Virus record (IMG/VR): IMGVR_UViG_2529292908_000011
Strand: one strand, 5' to 3'
Length of the DNA stretch: 34,254 nt
Source of the DNA: a virus
Lineage: Duplodnaviria; Heunggongvirae; Uroviricota; Caudoviricetes
Below are positions 13,384-19,757 of the stretch, piece after piece. Both the position numbers and the translations under genes were made by a program. Below the pieces are notes generated by a model. It was given only the letters and a program-made list of their open reading frames with translations. It searched no databases and was not told where the DNA came from. Position 1 is the first letter of the stretch, and each line of letters starts with the position of its first letter.

Positions 13384-14523
13384 TCATACTGTTGCAGTGC
13401 CACAGCGAGCCCCCCATGTCACTGTATCGCCGGGGTGGTAGGTTTCACCGGCTCTGAACACACCGCGGTAGAGCATCACCGGCAGGGAAAATGTTTTTTC
13501 CGTACACTGGCCACTGCTCTGCCGGACCACCACAGAGAACAACCGCTCACCCGTCATGCTGACGTCAATATCCGCCACCCCGTCAACCAGGCATTCCCAT
13601 CCCCGCATCCCGTGCGTTTTTTCATACGCCCGCCAGAGTCCGCCCTGGTGTGTGGCATACGTGCCCCGGGGAAAGGATTTTTGATCGTCAATAGCGGGGA
13701 GCACTTCCAGTGCCGTGGCATCACGCCCGTCCTGCGGAGCCGGCAGGGCACTCACCGCCTCCAGAACCGCCTTCCGCAGAACATCCGGATCGTAGTCACG
13801 ACCATCACGCGGAACAGGAATATGGCTTACCGCCTCCTTCACCATCTGTTCAAGCATCGGACGCACATCATCGGGGGTGATACTTTTGCCGTCTGCCGGC
13901 ACCGGTATTTTCGCGACCGCATCATTCACCGCCAGCTTCAGTACTTCCGGATCGTAATCACGACCGTCACGCGGAGCAGGGATATGGCTTACGGCCTCTT
14001 TCACCATCTGCTCAAGCATCGGACGCACATCATCGGGGGTGATACTTTTGCCGTCCGCCGGTACCGGAATTCTCCCGACCGCATCATTCACCGCCTGCTT
14101 CAGTACTTCCGGATCGTAATCACGACCGTCACGCGGAGCAGGGATATGGCTTACGGCCTCTTTCACCATCTGCTCAAGCATCGGACGCACATCATCGGGG
14201 GTGATACTTTTGCCGTCCGCCGGTACCGGAATTCTCCCGACCGCATCATTCACCGCCTGCTGCAGTACATCCGGATCATAATCACGACCATCACGCGGTA
14301 CCGGAATGGTCCCCACAGCGTCATCCACCATCGCCTGCAGAACCGGATGTACCTCATCCACCGTCACATGCTTCTGTAATACCGCCGACAGGGAAGCCAG
14401 TTTCTCTTCAAACGCTTGTGCCTGCGCGGCCATCTTCCCCTCAAATGTGCGCTGTAAATCCGCCAGCACCGTGGAGAATTCTTCGCCCAGTGCACAAATA
14501 ATGGACAGTTCCCGTTCCGTCAT
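13384..14523 (-). CDS. hypothetical head-module protein with four tandem ~47-aa repeats and a unique C-terminal domain
   Basis: 379-aa ORF whose ATG overlaps the portal stop (ATGA). Repeats of ...AVxxIPVPRDGRDYDPxVLxxAVNDAVGRIPVPADGKSITPDDVRPMLEQMVKE... The 385-aa plus-strand ORF 13222..14379 is the antisense artefact. Confidence 0.7.
   Translation of the reverse strand: MTERELSIICALGEEFSTVLADLQRTFEGKMAAQAQAFEEKLASLSAVLQKHVTVDEVHPVLQAMVDDAVGTIPVPRDGRDYDPDVLQQAVNDAVGRIPVPADGKSITPDDVRPMLEQMVKEAVSHIPAPRDGRDYDPEVLKQAVNDAVGRIPVPADGKSITPDDVRPMLEQMVKEAVSHIPAPRDGRDYDPEVLKLAVNDAVAKIPVPADGKSITPDDVRPMLEQMVKEAVSHIPVPRDGRDYDPDVLRKAVLEAVSALPAPQDGRDATALEVLPAIDDQKSFPRGTYATHQGGLWRAYEKTHGMRGWECLVDGVADIDVSMTGERLFSVVVRQSSGQCTEKTFSLPVMLYRGVFRAGETYHPGDTVTWGARCGTATV
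13710..14340. repeat. near-identical 141-bp coding tandem repeats (about 4 copies)
   Basis: For example 13941-14081 and 14082-14222 are almost identical at the DNA level. Confidence 0.8.
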
Positions 14524-15884
14524 TTTCTCAGTATCCCCCTGAACATCGCTTTCACTGCATCATGCTCTGTTTCACTGATTGCCTTATTACCGTCAGATGC
14601 GCCGTCAGGCAGTTGTGCTGAAACTGTTTTCCCGGCCGACGCGAACGGGTCCTCACGGGCATCACGACGGGACAGCGCCTCCAGACTGTAGTTCTGCTGC
14701 TGAAGATACAGTGCATCACCGCCGGCAAGGGGCGGCAGGTTCTCACGTTTACGGGCCTCATTGGGCGTGAGAAGCGTATTTTTCACCGATTCACCCAGTG
14801 TTTTCATGCGCCGTTCGCTGTCCATTCTCAGCAGCGTGGTGACGTCAAACTCCGTGCTCTCGTTTTCCCCCGTTTCCAGCGCCTCATCCAGTAACAGCTC
14901 AATGGACTCAATCAGCGTCTGCAGACACTGGGAATAATACTGCTGCTCCAGCGCCTCCACGTTGTCACTGGAAGGCGGGTGGCCAACGCCAATCTTGTAG
15001 GCCGGGACACGGAACACCGAACAGACAATTTCAGCCGTCATTTTCAGTTGTTCCACCGTCTGCGCATCCACCGGTGAAAACGTCGTGGGGCTGTATTTTG
15101 CCCCGTTGCTCAGTATGGCCGTCTTCCCGGCATTTTCGCCCGTATATCCGCTGTCCCAGTTCCCCTTCAGTTTTTTCGCGTTTTCTTCCGTAATACTGCC
15201 GGGGACCTCAATCACGCCTGATGGTCGCCCGCCATTTCTGAAAAAATACGTCGAATTTGCCTGAATATGATGCCCCTGCATGGCGGCCAGTCCTGCGGCA
15301 TACACCGGCGGCAGCCCCACAAGCGGATGAAAAAAACAGTTAAAACGGTCGTGGATCACCTCCCGGGCAGGCACCGTCACCGACTCCGTGATCCCACAGT
15401 TCCGGTCCGGCGTGATGCGGTAGAACACGTCGCCGTCATCCGCCACCAGAGGTTCAACCCGGTTCCAGTCCAGAATACGCAGTTCTTTGATCTGCCCCCG
15501 GGGGTTGCGGATTTTCAGCACCACCGTATTGCCGTGACGCAATTTGGAATTCAGCCACAGTTCAAAAAACTGGATGCGATTCTGCTGTGCATTAGGACGA
15601 CGACAGAGACGGGCAGTATCTCCCTGCCGCTTTTCCCGGCGTATTCCCTGTACATCAGTCTGCATCAGGCGAAGCCGCATTTTGGCAATATCCTGGGATA
15701 TCAGCGAAATGCATGAAAACACCGCGTGAAAGGACAAAACGGTTTCCGGATCGGCTTTCACACCCTGCTGCCAGGCACCGGCAAAAGGCTCAGCCACCGC
15801 CTGAAACAGGGACCGCCAGCCCACTTCTCTTACGTCACGTCCTGATTTCTGGTTTTTTCGGGTTCGCCGCAAAAGGTTCCACAT
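14520..15884 (-). CDS. portal protein (HK97-family type)
   Basis: 454-aa ORF with ...TGENAGKTAILSNGAKYSPTTFSPVDAQTVEQLKMTAEIVCSVFRVPAYKIG..., characteristic of the portal family. ATG at 15884 is preceded by a GGAG Shine-Dalgarno. Confidence 0.75.
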   Translation of the reverse strand: MWNLLRRTRKNQKSGRDVREVGWRSLFQAVAEPFAGAWQQGVKADPETVLSFHAVFSCISLISQDIAKMRLRLMQTDVQGIRREKRQGDTARLCRRPNAQQNRIQFFELWLNSKLRHGNTVVLKIRNPRGQIKELRILDWNRVEPLVADDGDVFYRITPDRNCGITESVTVPAREVIHDRFNCFFHPLVGLPPVYAAGLAAMQGHHIQANSTYFFRNGGRPSGVIEVPGSITEENAKKLKGNWDSGYTGENAGKTAILSNGAKYSPTTFSPVDAQTVEQLKMTAEIVCSVFRVPAYKIGVGHPPSSDNVEALEQQYYSQCLQTLIESIELLLDEALETGENESTEFDVTTLLRMDSERRMKTLGESVKNTLLTPNEARKRENLPPLAGGDALYLQQQNYSLEALSRRDAREDPFASAGKTVSAQLPDGASDGNKAISETEHDAVKAMFRGILRK

Positions 15885-16095
15885 TCGCCATGCTCCGCAT
15901 CACGTTTCTTTTTCTGACCTGCCGGACGTCGCGCTGTGATGTACTCCGCCTTCCCCAGGCGAACCAGCACCTCCGCACACGGCTGTGCCACATCACGGAT
16001 ATCCCCGGCCCGGGCATCATGCGTGCCCTGCAGATACTGGATTTTTGCCATCTGTTACTGCGGGAAGCTCGCGCCTCCCGCCCTCCTCATCAGAC

Positions 16096-18043: not shown

Positions 18044-18071
18044 TGAAAATAAAAAAACCGCCGGAGCGGTT
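18044..18071 (-). terminator. hairpin plus U-run between the terminase large subunit and capsid genes
   Basis: Minus-strand AACCGC-tccg-GCGGTT followed by TTTTT, then ATTTTCAGGAGG, which is the capsid Shine-Dalgarno. Confidence 0.4.
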
Positions 18072-18096
18072 CGTGATGGTTACAGTGTGAACAGGG

Positions 18097-19757
18097 TTAT
18101 ATGAAAAAAACCGCATATTCTTTCTTTTTCGGTTCCGGGTTAAGGGACATCAGGGAGACCGCATTGAACAGCGCCATCAGCGGGTCAATTTTTCCCCGTC
18201 CACTGACCTGTTTGGTGATAAGAATGGCGTTACCTTTAGGCTCCACCCGGGCATTGCCGACACACCAGGCCATCAGGGGCTGGTCACCATGCACCAGCAC
18301 CCCTTCAGCCAGTTTGCGCTCGGTGGTTTTAATGGCCCCGCCCAGTTTCCAGCCCTGGCTTATCCCCACCACAATTCCGTCGGGGATCCCGGCTTCCGCC
18401 AGTGAATCCAGAATCTGCCCCACCCCTGACGGGTCAATACCGATATGGTCCAGTAACTCAGCCTCATGAATGCGACGCACATATTCCGCCACTTCAGCCG
18501 TGTCATCCCCGACACGCCGGACAATGGTCATATCTCCACAGGCAACAAGATCCTGAAACCGGGACGCCTCGCTCTTCCGTCGGACCACCGCGGTTTCATG
18601 CGCCCAGGCATGGCCCCAGCCCAGCCATTCGCGGGTCTCCCGGTCACGCCCAATCACATACATCCCCAGCAGATCATCCAGCCCTCCGCCGTCAATCCCC
18701 ACCGTCACCACATCAGCACGACGCAGGATATCGTCCAGGTTGATACAACGGCCCTGCTCTTCCCAGAAATCAGCCCCCGCCCAGCGGTCAGAGCGCAGGG
18801 CAAGACCAATTTCCACATTGGCGTGTTTTGACATGAACCCCCGGAATGTCTCTTCACCGGCTTCCCGGGCTTTACGGTACTCCCGGTACAGAAAGGCCTC
18901 ATCCACTGAATAGCCGAGATTCGGATTGACCATGGCGAGGTTTTCCATCAGCAGGTGAGCCCCGCTTTCCACCATTTCAGGAGGGTGTTCAAATATCACC
19001 GGCAGAAAGTGCGGATCATTAATTTTGCCGTCGCGCACATCCCGGGCGTACTGCAGTTTTTGTCTGAACACCCCGGCGGGCGGTTCATTCGACTGGGTGG
19101 TCGTATACACCACAAACCCTTCCGGGCGGGAGGCAAGCCCGCCGATGGCTTCACGTAACATGTCCTCCGCCTTGTACTGCTTGCCAAACAGCCACAACTC
19201 ATCAATCAGCGTCCCCACGGACTTGATACCGGACACCGTATTCGGATCGGCTGCCACCACCTTCAGGGTGGTGTCCGTCACCCGGTGGGTGATGGTCCGG
19301 ATATGTGTCTGCACCTGACAGAGGTCATCCAGATCATCGTCCCGTCGTACCATATCCCTGGCAGGATTGAAGGCGTTGGCTGCCACCTCCACAGTCGGGG
19401 CCAGAATCGTGTAACCCGCCGCCTGCCGCCAGTTCAGTAACAGCGCCGTCATCATGATCCCGGCGGCCAGTGTGGACTTGCTGTTTTTTTGGGTATCAGA
19501 ATGAACACTTCCTTGATATGGCGGACACCGGTCTGCGCATCGTAGGAGCCAAACAGAGCCGCCACCAGGTCAAACACCCACTGTGCACAGGACTCCCCGA
19601 ACGTCAGGCTACCCGGTGCATCCACAATCCGCAGTTGTTTAAAAATCGCCAGGGCATGTGCGGCCTGGTCCGGATAAATCGGAGCCGGAATAATCGACAG
19701 CCCCTTTTTCAGGCGCTCTGCCCAGTCCGGGCAGGCTGTGCTCCATACAGGTATCAT
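18097..19757 (-). CDS. terminase large subunit, interrupted by a 1-nt frameshift in an A7/T7 run (about 19484-19490) in this sequence
   Basis: ORF 19452..19757 gives the N-terminus ...HIKEVFILIPKK, ending where the Walker A motif should continue. ORF 18097..19455 gives the rest (...VTVGIDGGGLDDLLGMYVIGR..., ...GIDPSGVGQILDSL...). One extra A would restore PKKNSKSTLAAGIMMTALL. Confidence 0.8.

What the first reader, a model, noticed from the sequence alone, without database searches (positions are those of the whole stretch)
14520..19757. Non-canonical head gene order: terminase large subunit, then protease-capsid fusion, then portal
By motif, the 645-aa gene directly after the terminase large subunit is a prohead protease fused to an HK97-type capsid protein, and the portal follows it. 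The usual order is terminase, portal, protease, capsid. A hairpin plus U-run (18044-18071) lies between the terminase and capsid genes, just before the capsid Shine-Dalgarno. This is either a genuine alternative module order or a rearrangement in a decaying prophage.
Basis: inference. Interest (0 to 1): 0.5.

Follow-up and report, generated by a model that had tools for sequence, protein, structure and literature searches.

The report
Known phage head-gene order, not rearrangement
The terminase, protease-capsid fusion, portal order is real, but it is the normal, long-catalogued layout of a very common family of E. coli Shiga-toxin-type phages and their relatives, so it is not damage in this decaying prophage.

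Summary
On the minus strand lie TerS (20317-19754), TerL (19757-18097), a hairpin plus U-run, a 645-aa S78 protease/HK97 capsid fusion (18033-16096), a conserved 73-aa ORF, an HK97-type portal (15884-14520), a fibre-like repeat protein and the head-tail connectors.

This order is native and not a local rearrangement. The 5.8-kb module is colinear in 92 phage records, including BP-4795, 2851, 1717, YYZ-2008 and the virion-forming Lys8385Vzw and phi330. All 80 IMG/VR loci show it, and the TerL-capsid junction occurs in at least 1126 of 5426 complete E. coli genomes. More distant relatives in other Enterobacterales, Pseudomonas phage PAJU2 (annotated "prohead protease fused capsid protein"), Chelatococcus and Rhizobium prophages keep it too. 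Burkholderia and Moraxella phages have the same order with protease and capsid as separate genes.

The prophage is nevertheless defective. It lacks the lysis/Q region and most of the tape-measure gene, and TerL carries a 1-nt homopolymer contraction that may be a sequencing error.

One possibly new point: an in-frame ATG (M193) with an SD-like motif aligns exactly with the start of stand-alone capsid genes. It is Met in 117 of 151 aligned sequences. This suggests nested genes like lambda C/Nu3. It is inferred, not shown.

The parts
20608..20973 (-). HNH endonuclease just upstream of TerS, the HK97-style cos-packaging accessory gene
   Evidence: PF01844 HNH at 3.7e-08. It is conserved upstream of TerS in 63 of 80 IMG/VR loci and in L006-L009.
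19754..20317 (-). Terminase small subunit, 187 aa, GTG start
   Evidence: PF03592 at 1.3e-08 and phrog_641 at 1.8e-68.
18097..19757 (-). Terminase large subunit, interrupted by a -1 frameshift into ORFs of 101 aa and 452 aa
   Evidence: TerL_nuclease PF20441 hits the 452-aa piece. The intact 553-aa orthologue in L001 hits phrog_9 and phrog_7622. A 1-bp deletion was located.
19484..19490 (.). T7 homopolymer (A7 on the coding strand). The nearest relatives (L002, L018) have T8; more distant ones have an interrupted run (L001 AAGAAAAA). This is the frameshift site in the TerL Walker-A region.
   Evidence: Alignments to L001, L002, L018 and L068.
18045..18072 (-). Intrinsic-terminator-like hairpin with a 7-bp GC-rich stem, tetraloop and U-run, between the TerL stop and the capsid SD (AGGAGG at 18044-18039)
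   Evidence: It is positionally conserved, with covarying stems, in BP-4795, Enterobacter, Atlantibacter, Kosakonia, Pantoea, PAJU2 and Moraxella Mcat6.
16096..18033 (-). 645-aa ORF encoding prohead protease, linker, delta (scaffold-like) domain and HK97-fold major capsid protein; GTG start
   Evidence: (phrog_617 at 1.5e-260). The fused length is conserved in 143 of 151 aligned sequences (the window protein plus 150 representatives of 50%-identity clusters).
17578..17892 (-). S78 prohead serine protease domain (aa 48-152), with His55 and Ser110 conserved
   Evidence: PF04586 at 34.7 bits. H55 is present in 145 of 145 and S110 in 144 of 145 aligned representatives.
17455..17472 (-). In-frame internal ATG (M193, 17457-17455) preceded by SD-like AAGGA (17472-17468); candidate start of a nested delta-capsid gene
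16129..16878 (-). Phage_capsid (HK97-fold) domain, aa 386-635
   Evidence: PF05065 at 1e-14 and TIGR01554 at 1.8e-22. Weak match to capsid protein PDB 9d9w.
15830..16051 (-). Conserved 73-aa ORF between capsid and portal, overlapping the portal start by 55 nt; function unknown
   Evidence: phrog_829 at 8.3e-39. tblastn gives 51-56% identity in L006-L009. It is present in the IMG/VR loci. Small ORFs sit at the same place in PAJU2, Burkholderia and Moraxella phages. No Pfam hit.
14520..15884 (-). HK97-family portal protein, 454 aa
   Evidence: PF04860 at 2.3e-79 and TIGR01537 at 3.6e-109.
14535..14539 (.). G5 run (coding strand) 12 nt before the portal stop codon. The G6 allele fuses the portal to the next ORF.
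13384..14523 (-). Post-portal fibre-like protein with 3.3 copies of a 54-aa repeat. Its start overlaps the portal stop (ATGA). Its C-terminus is truncated here by a C7-to-C6 contraction at 13410-13415. Databases often label it 'portal protein'.
   Evidence: (phrog_2271 positions 455-833). The Chelatococcus orthologue carries collagen repeats.
12618..13304 (-). Head-tail adaptor Ad1 (13304-12978) and head-closure protein Hc1 (12968-12618), which end the head module
   Evidence: PF05135 and PF05521; phrog_40.

Best explanation
This is the native head-assembly and packaging module of a large lineage of HK97-like cos siphophages. The lineage includes the long-tailed Stx-converting lambdoid phages of E. 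coli (BP-4795, 2851, 1717, phi330 and others) and relatives in other Proteobacteria.

In this lineage the portal gene lies downstream of the protease and capsid genes. In most members the S78 protease, the delta (scaffold) domain and the HK97-fold capsid protein are read as one ORF of about 645 codons.

Inferred mechanism:
- The late operon is transcribed through the hairpin under Q antitermination.
- The fusion protein co-assembles with the portal into a prohead, with its protease and delta domains facing inward.
- The protease then removes itself and the delta domain.
- TerS, TerL and the HNH protein package DNA from cos.
- Probably, a second product (delta plus capsid, 453 aa) starts at the conserved internal ATG (M193) and supplies most subunits. 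The full-length form would then be a capsid-anchored protease, analogous to lambda C/Nu3.

The copy in this window cannot make phage. It lacks the Q/lysis region and most of the tape-measure gene, and TerL reads as frameshifted.
For: Shown:
- The domain assignments hold.
- The 5.8-kb module is colinear at 94-99% identity in 92 of 94 matching phage records.
- At least 1126 complete E. coli genomes carry the contiguous TerL-capsid junction.
- 80 of 80 IMG/VR loci are colinear.
- The same order occurs at 40-76% protein identity in Enterobacter, Atlantibacter, Kosakonia, Pantoea, Chelatococcus and Rhizobium prophages.
- Burkholderia vB_FKKS2 and Moraxella Mcat6 have the same order with protease and capsid as separate genes.
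- Members make virions. Lys8385Vzw was imaged by TEM and is a cos phage (PMC7946995). phi330 forms plaques and has a 55-nm head (PMC12502783). Both carry the module.
- The protease residues His55 and Ser110 are essentially invariant.

Support for the internal start:
- M193 aligns with residue 1 of stand-alone capsid genes.
- The column is Met in 117 of 151 aligned sequences, and V, L or I in 13 more.
- An AAGGA-type motif lies 6-10 nt upstream in all 27 DNA sequences examined. It is strong in PAJU2 and Chelatococcus.

Decay of this copy.
Against: - No expression or protein data exist for any member. The phi330 mass-spectrometry maps cover only the podoviruses.
- In Enterobacterales the SD-like motif is weak: -5.6 kcal/mol, only in the top ~14% of positions within the gene. 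It could be a by-product of Lys-Gly/Lys-Glu codons.
- The conserved Met could be a relic of a gene fusion, or simply part of a conserved helix (M-x-x-x-E-Q-I).
- A terminator-like hairpin directly upstream of the most highly expressed gene is not explained by this model beyond antitermination read-through.
Confidence: 0.9

Rival explanations
1. The order arose from a local rearrangement, with the portal moved behind the capsid gene during decay of this particular prophage.
For: The prophage is clearly decaying. It has a ~9.7-kb deletion of the lysis/Q/nin genes at 21894 and a 2.66-kb tape-measure/gpT deletion at 10618. Protein J is truncated, and IS1 and IS5-like transposases are present.
Against: Identical order and junctions occur in functional phages and in hundreds of genomes. 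The order also holds in relatives as distant as Alphaproteobacteria. No repeat, IS element or breakpoint lies at either junction, and the window aligns colinearly with L002 across 10617-21894.
Confidence: 0.02
2. The 645-aa fusion is an artefact of this copy: a lost stop codon or frameshift joined separate protease and capsid genes.
For: Separate protease and capsid genes exist in Burkholderia and Moraxella relatives, 13 nt apart or overlapping by 4 nt. The window also carries homopolymer indels elsewhere.
Against: The fused ORF is the same length in more than 100 clusters across Enterobacterales. It is fused in 143 of 151 aligned sequences and in PAJU2, Chelatococcus and Rhizobium.
Confidence: 0.02
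3. Only the full-length polyprotein is made. Every capsid subunit carries its own protease, which is removed autocatalytically after assembly, and the internal ATG and SD are evolutionary relics.
For: The SD is weak in Enterobacterales. The Met is followed by a conserved helix, so it may be conserved for structural reasons. My own estimate is that 415 copies of about 33 kDa would fill less than half of a T=7 prohead interior, so the model is physically possible (inference).
Against: Met is retained in 117 of 151 aligned sequences right after a hypervariable, indel-rich linker. Most substitutions there are V, L or I, which are compatible with GTG, TTG or ATT starts. An SD-like motif is present in every DNA sequence examined and is strong in two divergent lineages. 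Nested protease/scaffold genes are the rule in lambda (C/Nu3), Mu (I/Z) and herpesviruses (UL26/UL26.5) (established knowledge).
Confidence: 0.45
4. The hairpin plus U-run is a working terminator that separates the terminase genes from the capsid genes and would need a separate promoter downstream.
For: It has canonical terminator geometry. Its position just upstream of the capsid SD is conserved across divergent relatives.
Against: No sigma-70-like promoter was found between it and the capsid start. Lambdoid late operons are read through terminators by Q-modified polymerase (established knowledge). A role as an RNA-stability or processing element is equally possible.
Confidence: 0.3

Closest known systems
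Head modules of the long-tailed Stx-converting lambdoid phages BP-4795 (AJ556162), 2851 (FM180578), 1717, YYZ-2008, Lys8385Vzw and phi330
   Same: Same genes in the same order at 93.5-99% nucleotide identity. The fusion is annotated 'putative major head protein/prohead protease'.
   Different: The window copy has a frameshifted TerL and a C-terminally truncated post-portal protein. It sits in a prophage that lacks the Q/lysis region and most of the tape-measure gene.
Pseudomonas phage PAJU2 ORF001-ORF009 (NC_011373)
   Same: TerS, TerL, 'prohead protease fused capsid protein', small ORFs, portal, post-portal protein, Ad1 and Hc1. The fusion is 48% identical.
   Different: It has two small ORFs rather than one between capsid and portal, and a stronger internal SD (CAGGAGGG).
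Bacteriophage HK97 head module (gp1-gp5 plus the HNH protein gp74)
   Same: HK97-family portal, S78 protease, a capsid protein with an N-terminal delta domain instead of a separate scaffold, and an HNH gene next to TerS.
   Different: In HK97 the order is TerL, portal, protease, capsid, with protease and capsid as separate genes (established knowledge). Here the portal follows the capsid gene, the protease is fused, and an extra fibre-like gene follows the portal.
Nested protease/scaffold genes: lambda C/Nu3, Mu I/Z and herpesvirus UL26/UL26.5
   Same: A long product with an N-terminal protease and a shorter, abundant product from an in-frame internal start share a C-terminus, which targets the protease into the prohead. 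This is the working model proposed here.
   Different: In those systems the shared part is a scaffold. Here it would be the capsid protein itself with its delta domain. Two products have not been demonstrated.
'Major capsid and protease fusion protein' of actinobacteriophages (clusters EE, AU, AW) and NCBIfam NF045541
   Same: The same domain architecture is recognised as a named annotation category.
   Different: There is no close sequence relationship. The window protein scores 54 bits against NF045541, whose cut-off is 525.

Membership tests
HK97-like head module | HK97-fold major capsid protein with an N-terminal delta domain and no separate scaffold gene | tested here: met
   TIGR01554 at 80 bits (cut-off 27.5) over aa 204-584, matching profile positions 3-355. 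PF05065 at 55 bits. No scaffold gene was found in the module.
HK97-like head module | S78 (HK97 gp4-type) prohead serine protease with conserved His and Ser | tested here: met
   PF04586 at 34.7 bits (cut-off 21). TIGR01543 reaches only 48 bits against a cut-off of 59. H55 and S110 are invariant in relatives.
HK97-like head module | HK97-family portal | tested here: met
   TIGR01537 at 365 bits (cut-off 112) and PF04860 at 267 bits.
HK97-like head module | Canonical order TerL, portal, protease, capsid | tested here: not met
   The order here is TerL, protease-capsid, orf73, portal, in the window and in all relatives examined.
BP-4795/2851-type Stx-phage head module | Colinear nucleotide homology across TerS to portal | tested here: met
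   100% query coverage at 93.5-98.8% identity in 92 phage records.
BP-4795/2851-type Stx-phage head module | Intact ORFs for all head and packaging genes | tested here: not met
   TerL is frameshifted at 19484-19490 and the post-portal protein is truncated at 13410-13415. Both are homopolymer contractions and could be sequencing errors.
Protease-capsid fusion (NCBIfam NF045541) | Score above the family cut-off | tested here: not met
   54.3 bits against a cut-off of 525, matching aa 48-287 only. The architecture is the same but the sequence family is different.
Nested in-frame genes (lambda C/Nu3 type) | Conserved in-frame internal start codon with a ribosome-binding site | tested here: inconclusive
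   ATG is conserved: 117 of 151 aligned sequences have Met there, and it aligns with stand-alone capsid starts. The SD-like AAGGA is always present but weak in Enterobacterales.
Nested in-frame genes (lambda C/Nu3 type) | Two protein products sharing a C-terminus | not testable with these tools
   This needs proteomics or ribosome profiling. No data were found.
Intrinsic (Rho-independent) terminator | GC-rich stem-loop followed by a U-run | tested here: met
   A 7-bp stem with 4 GC pairs, a tetraloop and a T-run. It is conserved, with 2 of 7 pairs showing compensatory changes.
Intrinsic (Rho-independent) terminator | Termination of transcription at the site | not testable with these tools
   No transcript data are available.

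The most novel reading that the evidence does not exclude
The protease-capsid 'fusion' may really be a nested gene pair. A conserved in-frame start at M193 (17457-17455) would make the bulk delta-capsid subunit, while the full-length 645-aa product would be a minor subunit that carries the protease into the prohead. In that case the capsid protein itself serves as the protease's targeting domain. This would be a C/Nu3-like solution not documented for HK97-type capsid genes, and it would apply to more than a thousand protein clusters.
Probability: 0.45. Interest if true: 0.4.

Novelty: already known. Interest (0 to 1): 0.12.

Why it matters
It matters little as a discovery. The arrangement has been in GenBank since BP-4795 and PAJU2 were deposited, and the TerS-TerL stretch of the module matches about a fifth of complete E. 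coli genomes.

It is useful in three practical ways:
- Prophage annotators should not treat 'capsid before portal' as evidence of rearrangement.
- The post-portal gene is widely mislabelled 'portal protein' or 'frameshifted portal', because one allele (G6) fuses the two ORFs.
- The conserved internal start in the fusion gene gives a simple, testable hypothesis for how these phages set the protease-to-capsid ratio.

Tried and rejected
- Literature searches for the gene order, protease-capsid fusions, BP-4795, PAJU2 and Pankowvirus found no paper that discusses the order or the processing of this fusion. They returned only annotation-level mentions. The phi330 mass-spectrometry maps do not cover this phage.
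- Programmed -1 frameshifting at the portal G-run was considered, because PGAP flags the portal as 'frameshifted' and phage 2851 has a fused 859-aa ORF. I rejected it as a conserved feature. Outgroups have no slippery run and always have two ORFs overlapping by 1-8 nt. The G6 allele sits mainly in one haplotype cluster.
- SD hybridisation energy as a statistical test of the internal start was not decisive for Enterobacterales.
- Pfam searches gave no function for orf73 or for the post-portal C-terminal domain. The only hit was a non-significant CBM_5_12 match at E = 0.074.
- The PDB sequence search gave only a weak capsid match and nothing for the protease domain.
- The Rfam scan found nothing in the head module.
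- Locus L012 (Microvirga) looked like an unfused capsid gene, but it is truncated by an integrase insertion.
- L014 is only a distant capsid hit and was not used.

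
Full report
**Observation**

The ORF map shows a minus-strand array:
- HNH endonuclease, 20973-20608
- TerS, 20317-19754
- TerL, 19757-18097
- a 645-aa ORF, 18033-16096
- a 73-aa ORF, 16051-15830
- a 454-aa ORF, 15884-14520
- a 379-aa repeat protein, 14523-13384
- head-tail adaptor, head-closure, gp10-like and gp17-like genes

- The 645-aa protein passes the Pfam gathering scores for Peptidase_S78 (aa 48-152) and Phage_capsid (aa 386-635). It also passes TIGR01554 major_cap_HK97 over aa 204-584. It hits phrog_617 'major head protein' at 1.5e-260.
- The 454-aa protein is an HK97-family portal: PF04860 at 2.3e-79 and TIGR01537 at 365 bits.
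- The hairpin GAACCGC-TCCG-GCGGTTT (18072-18055) with its T-run lies just before AGGAGG (18044-18039) and the GTG start at 18033.

One thing was missed. TerL is not a single ORF here. A 1-nt contraction of a homopolymer (T7 at 19484-19490, against T8 in the nearest relatives L002 and L018) splits it into 101 aa and 452 aa inside the Walker-A region.

**Is the order a rearrangement?**

No. The 5.8-kb stretch 14520-20317 aligns colinearly, at 93.5-98.8% identity and full coverage, with 92 phage records. These include BP-4795, 2851, 1717, YYZ-2008, JLK-2012 and many Stx1a, Stx2a and Stx2c phages. Their annotations show the same order.

A probe spanning TerS, TerL and the capsid start matches 1255 of 5426 complete E. 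coli genomes. In 1126 of them it covers at least 80% of the probe, with a median of two copies per genome that has any. All 80 IMG/VR loci recovered with the fusion protein are colinear, apart from truncation at contig ends.

Members of the family are functional phages:
- Lys8385Vzw, whose capsid protein is 98.3% identical, was induced, imaged as a long-tailed virion and shown to be a cos phage (PMC7946995).
- phi330 forms plaques, has a 55-nm head and a 145-nm tail, and uses OmpC as receptor (PMC12502783).

The order is also old. Prophages of Enterobacter, Atlantibacter, Kosakonia and Pantoea keep TerS, TerL, fusion, (orf73), portal, post-portal protein and Ad1; their TerL, fusion and portal proteins are 51-76% identical to the window's. 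Chelatococcus and Rhizobium prophages (40-53% identity) keep TerL, fusion, portal and post-portal protein.

Burkholderia vB_FKKS2 and Moraxella Mcat6 have TerL, protease, capsid, small ORF, portal, with protease and capsid as separate genes. The feature that defines this lineage is therefore that the portal gene sits after the protease/capsid genes. The fusion is a frequent state within it.

**The fusion protein**

A search of 1.84 billion cluster representatives found 1155 with E of 1e-30 or better. I aligned the best 150 together with the window protein, giving 151 sequences. Of these, 143 are fused (about 630-680 aa) and six are capsid-only. Three of the six align from their residue 1 or 3 to query residue 193 or 194.

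The protease residues His55 (145/145) and Ser110 (144/145) are essentially invariant, so the protease domain is probably active.

After a hypervariable, indel-rich linker comes a Met (M193 here; ATG at 17457-17455). It is Met in 117 of the 151 aligned sequences, and V, L or I in 13 more. It aligns exactly with the start codons of the separate capsid genes in the Burkholderia and Moraxella phages.

In all 27 nucleotide sequences examined, an AAGGA-type motif lies 6-10 nt upstream. It is CAGGAGGG in PAJU2 and AAGGAGGG in Chelatococcus. In Enterobacterales the predicted pairing is only -5.6 kcal/mol, about the top 14% of positions in the gene. The motif alone is therefore not decisive.

My reading, at about 0.45-0.5 probability, is that the locus works as nested genes like lambda C/Nu3, Mu I/Z or herpesvirus UL26/UL26.5 (established knowledge). 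A minor full-length protease-delta-capsid product would co-assemble as a capsid subunit and carry the protease inside. A major delta-capsid product would start at M193.

The alternative is a single polyprotein that frees itself autocatalytically. By my estimate this is physically possible. No protein data exist for either model.

**The hairpin**

A GC-rich stem, a tetraloop and a U-run sit 10-20 nt before the capsid SD in BP-4795, Enterobacter, Atlantibacter, Kosakonia, Pantoea, PAJU2 and Moraxella Mcat6. The stem sequences differ but still pair.

One such site is not above chance in an 8-kb scan. Its conserved position, however, argues that it has a function. In lambdoid phages, Q-modified polymerase would read through it (established knowledge). 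Whether it attenuates transcription, marks a processing site or stabilises the capsid mRNA cannot be decided here.

**State of this prophage**

The window was compared with its nearest complete relative, L002, which is 99.4% identical over 10617-21894.
- It lacks about 9.7 kb between 21894 and the hok/sok region. In L002 that stretch holds Rz1, lysozyme, holin, tRNAs, the Q-like DUF1133 protein and RusA.
- It lacks 2.66 kb covering most of the tape-measure gene and gpT.
- Protein J is reduced to 231 aa, the tape-measure remnant is 299 aa, and IS1 and IS5-like transposases are present.

The element is therefore defective and, without Q and pR', probably silent. None of this touches the head-gene order.

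All four indels that distinguish the window from its closest relatives in the 11.3-kb colinear block are contractions of runs of 7 or more identical bases:
- A7 to A5 at 11822-11826
- C7 to C6 at 13410-13415
- T8 to T7 at 19484-19490
- C8 to C7 at 20592-20598

The same block holds 61 substitutions. This pattern is typical of homopolymer sequencing error. The TerL and post-portal 'frameshifts' should not be taken as established pseudogenisation.

**Side observations on the portal region**

The gene after the portal is often annotated as a second 'portal protein'. PGAP calls the pair one 'frameshifted' portal, and phrog_2271 is 859 positions long. The cause is a G-run 12 nt before the portal stop codon (14535-14539).
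- G5 gives two ORFs with an ATGA overlap.
- G6, as in phages 2851 and phi330, fuses them into one ORF of 859 aa.

Among 44 E. coli-type sequences (43 loci plus the window), 28 are G5 and 16 are G6. G6 is concentrated in one portal haplotype cluster, with a few apparent reversions and one independent case.

All outgroups have two ORFs and no slippery run. The split state is therefore ancestral, and a conserved programmed frameshift is unlikely.

The post-portal protein has 3.3 copies of a 54-aa repeat. Its length varies among relatives: 407 aa in L001 and 461 aa in BP-4795. Its Chelatococcus orthologue has collagen repeats in the same position. This suggests a fibre, and its function is unknown.

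**Verdict**

However, the arrangement is already represented and annotated in published phage genomes and is extremely common. It is ordinary, with an interest score of about 0.12. The only element with some novelty is the inferred nested start inside the fusion gene.

Noticed in passing
window 19484-19490: TerL is split into ORFs of 101 aa and 452 aa by a T8-to-T7 contraction (A-run on the coding strand) in the Walker-A region. Seventy-nine of the 94 other sequences with a TerL match give a single full-length alignment.
   Followed up: yes
window 11822-11826, 13410-13415, 19484-19490, 20592-20598: Every indel that separates the window from its nearest relatives (L002, L018) across 10617-21894 is a contraction of a homopolymer of 7 or more bases, against 61 substitutions. 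This looks like homopolymer sequencing error rather than decay.
   Followed up: partly
window 14535-14539: There is a G5/G6 polymorphism 12 nt before the portal stop codon. G6 (phages 2851 and phi330; 16 of 44 sequences) fuses the portal to the next ORF as an 859-aa protein. G5 is flagged by PGAP as a 'frameshifted' portal. Outgroups always have two ORFs.
   Followed up: yes
window 13384-14523: The post-portal gene, commonly mislabelled 'portal protein', encodes a coiled-coil N-terminus, 3.3 copies of a 54-aa repeat (162-nt period, 13766-14298) and a conserved C-terminal domain. Its length varies among relatives, and the Chelatococcus orthologue has collagen repeats. It may be a fibre. It is truncated here (379 aa against 407 aa).
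   Followed up: partly
window 15830-16051: A conserved 73-aa ORF (phrog_829, no Pfam family) lies between the capsid and portal genes and overlaps the portal start by 55 nt. A small ORF occupies the same position in PAJU2, Burkholderia and Moraxella phages.
   Followed up: partly
window 21894 and 10618: These are deletion junctions relative to L002. About 9.7 kb holding the lysis genes, tRNAs, the Q-like antiterminator and RusA is missing, as is 2.66 kb holding most of the tape-measure gene and gpT. Protein J is also truncated to 231 aa (4802-5497).
   Followed up: partly
window 8070-9206: An OmpC-like porin gene (PF00267 at 2.8e-142) is embedded in the tail-gene cluster, as in L002. The related phage phi330 uses OmpC as its receptor, so this may act as a superinfection-exclusion moron.
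   Followed up: no
window 22370-22695, 29870-29921, 132-330: Rfam finds sok antitoxin RNA next to a hok-like ORF, DicF sRNA, and an IS009 RNA inside the tail-fibre assembly gene region.
   Followed up: no
window 28458-29156 and 33263-33667: An IS1 transposase and a DUF772 (IS5-like) transposase fragment lie in the early region of the prophage.
   Followed up: no
P0002, P0123, P0131 (homologues, not in the window): A few database proteins of about 1080-1094 aa join a terminase-like N-terminal part to the protease-capsid fusion. In P0002 the N-terminal part has a TerL ATPase domain (PF03354). These are probably read-through or gene-calling artefacts across the short TerL-capsid gap.
   Followed up: no
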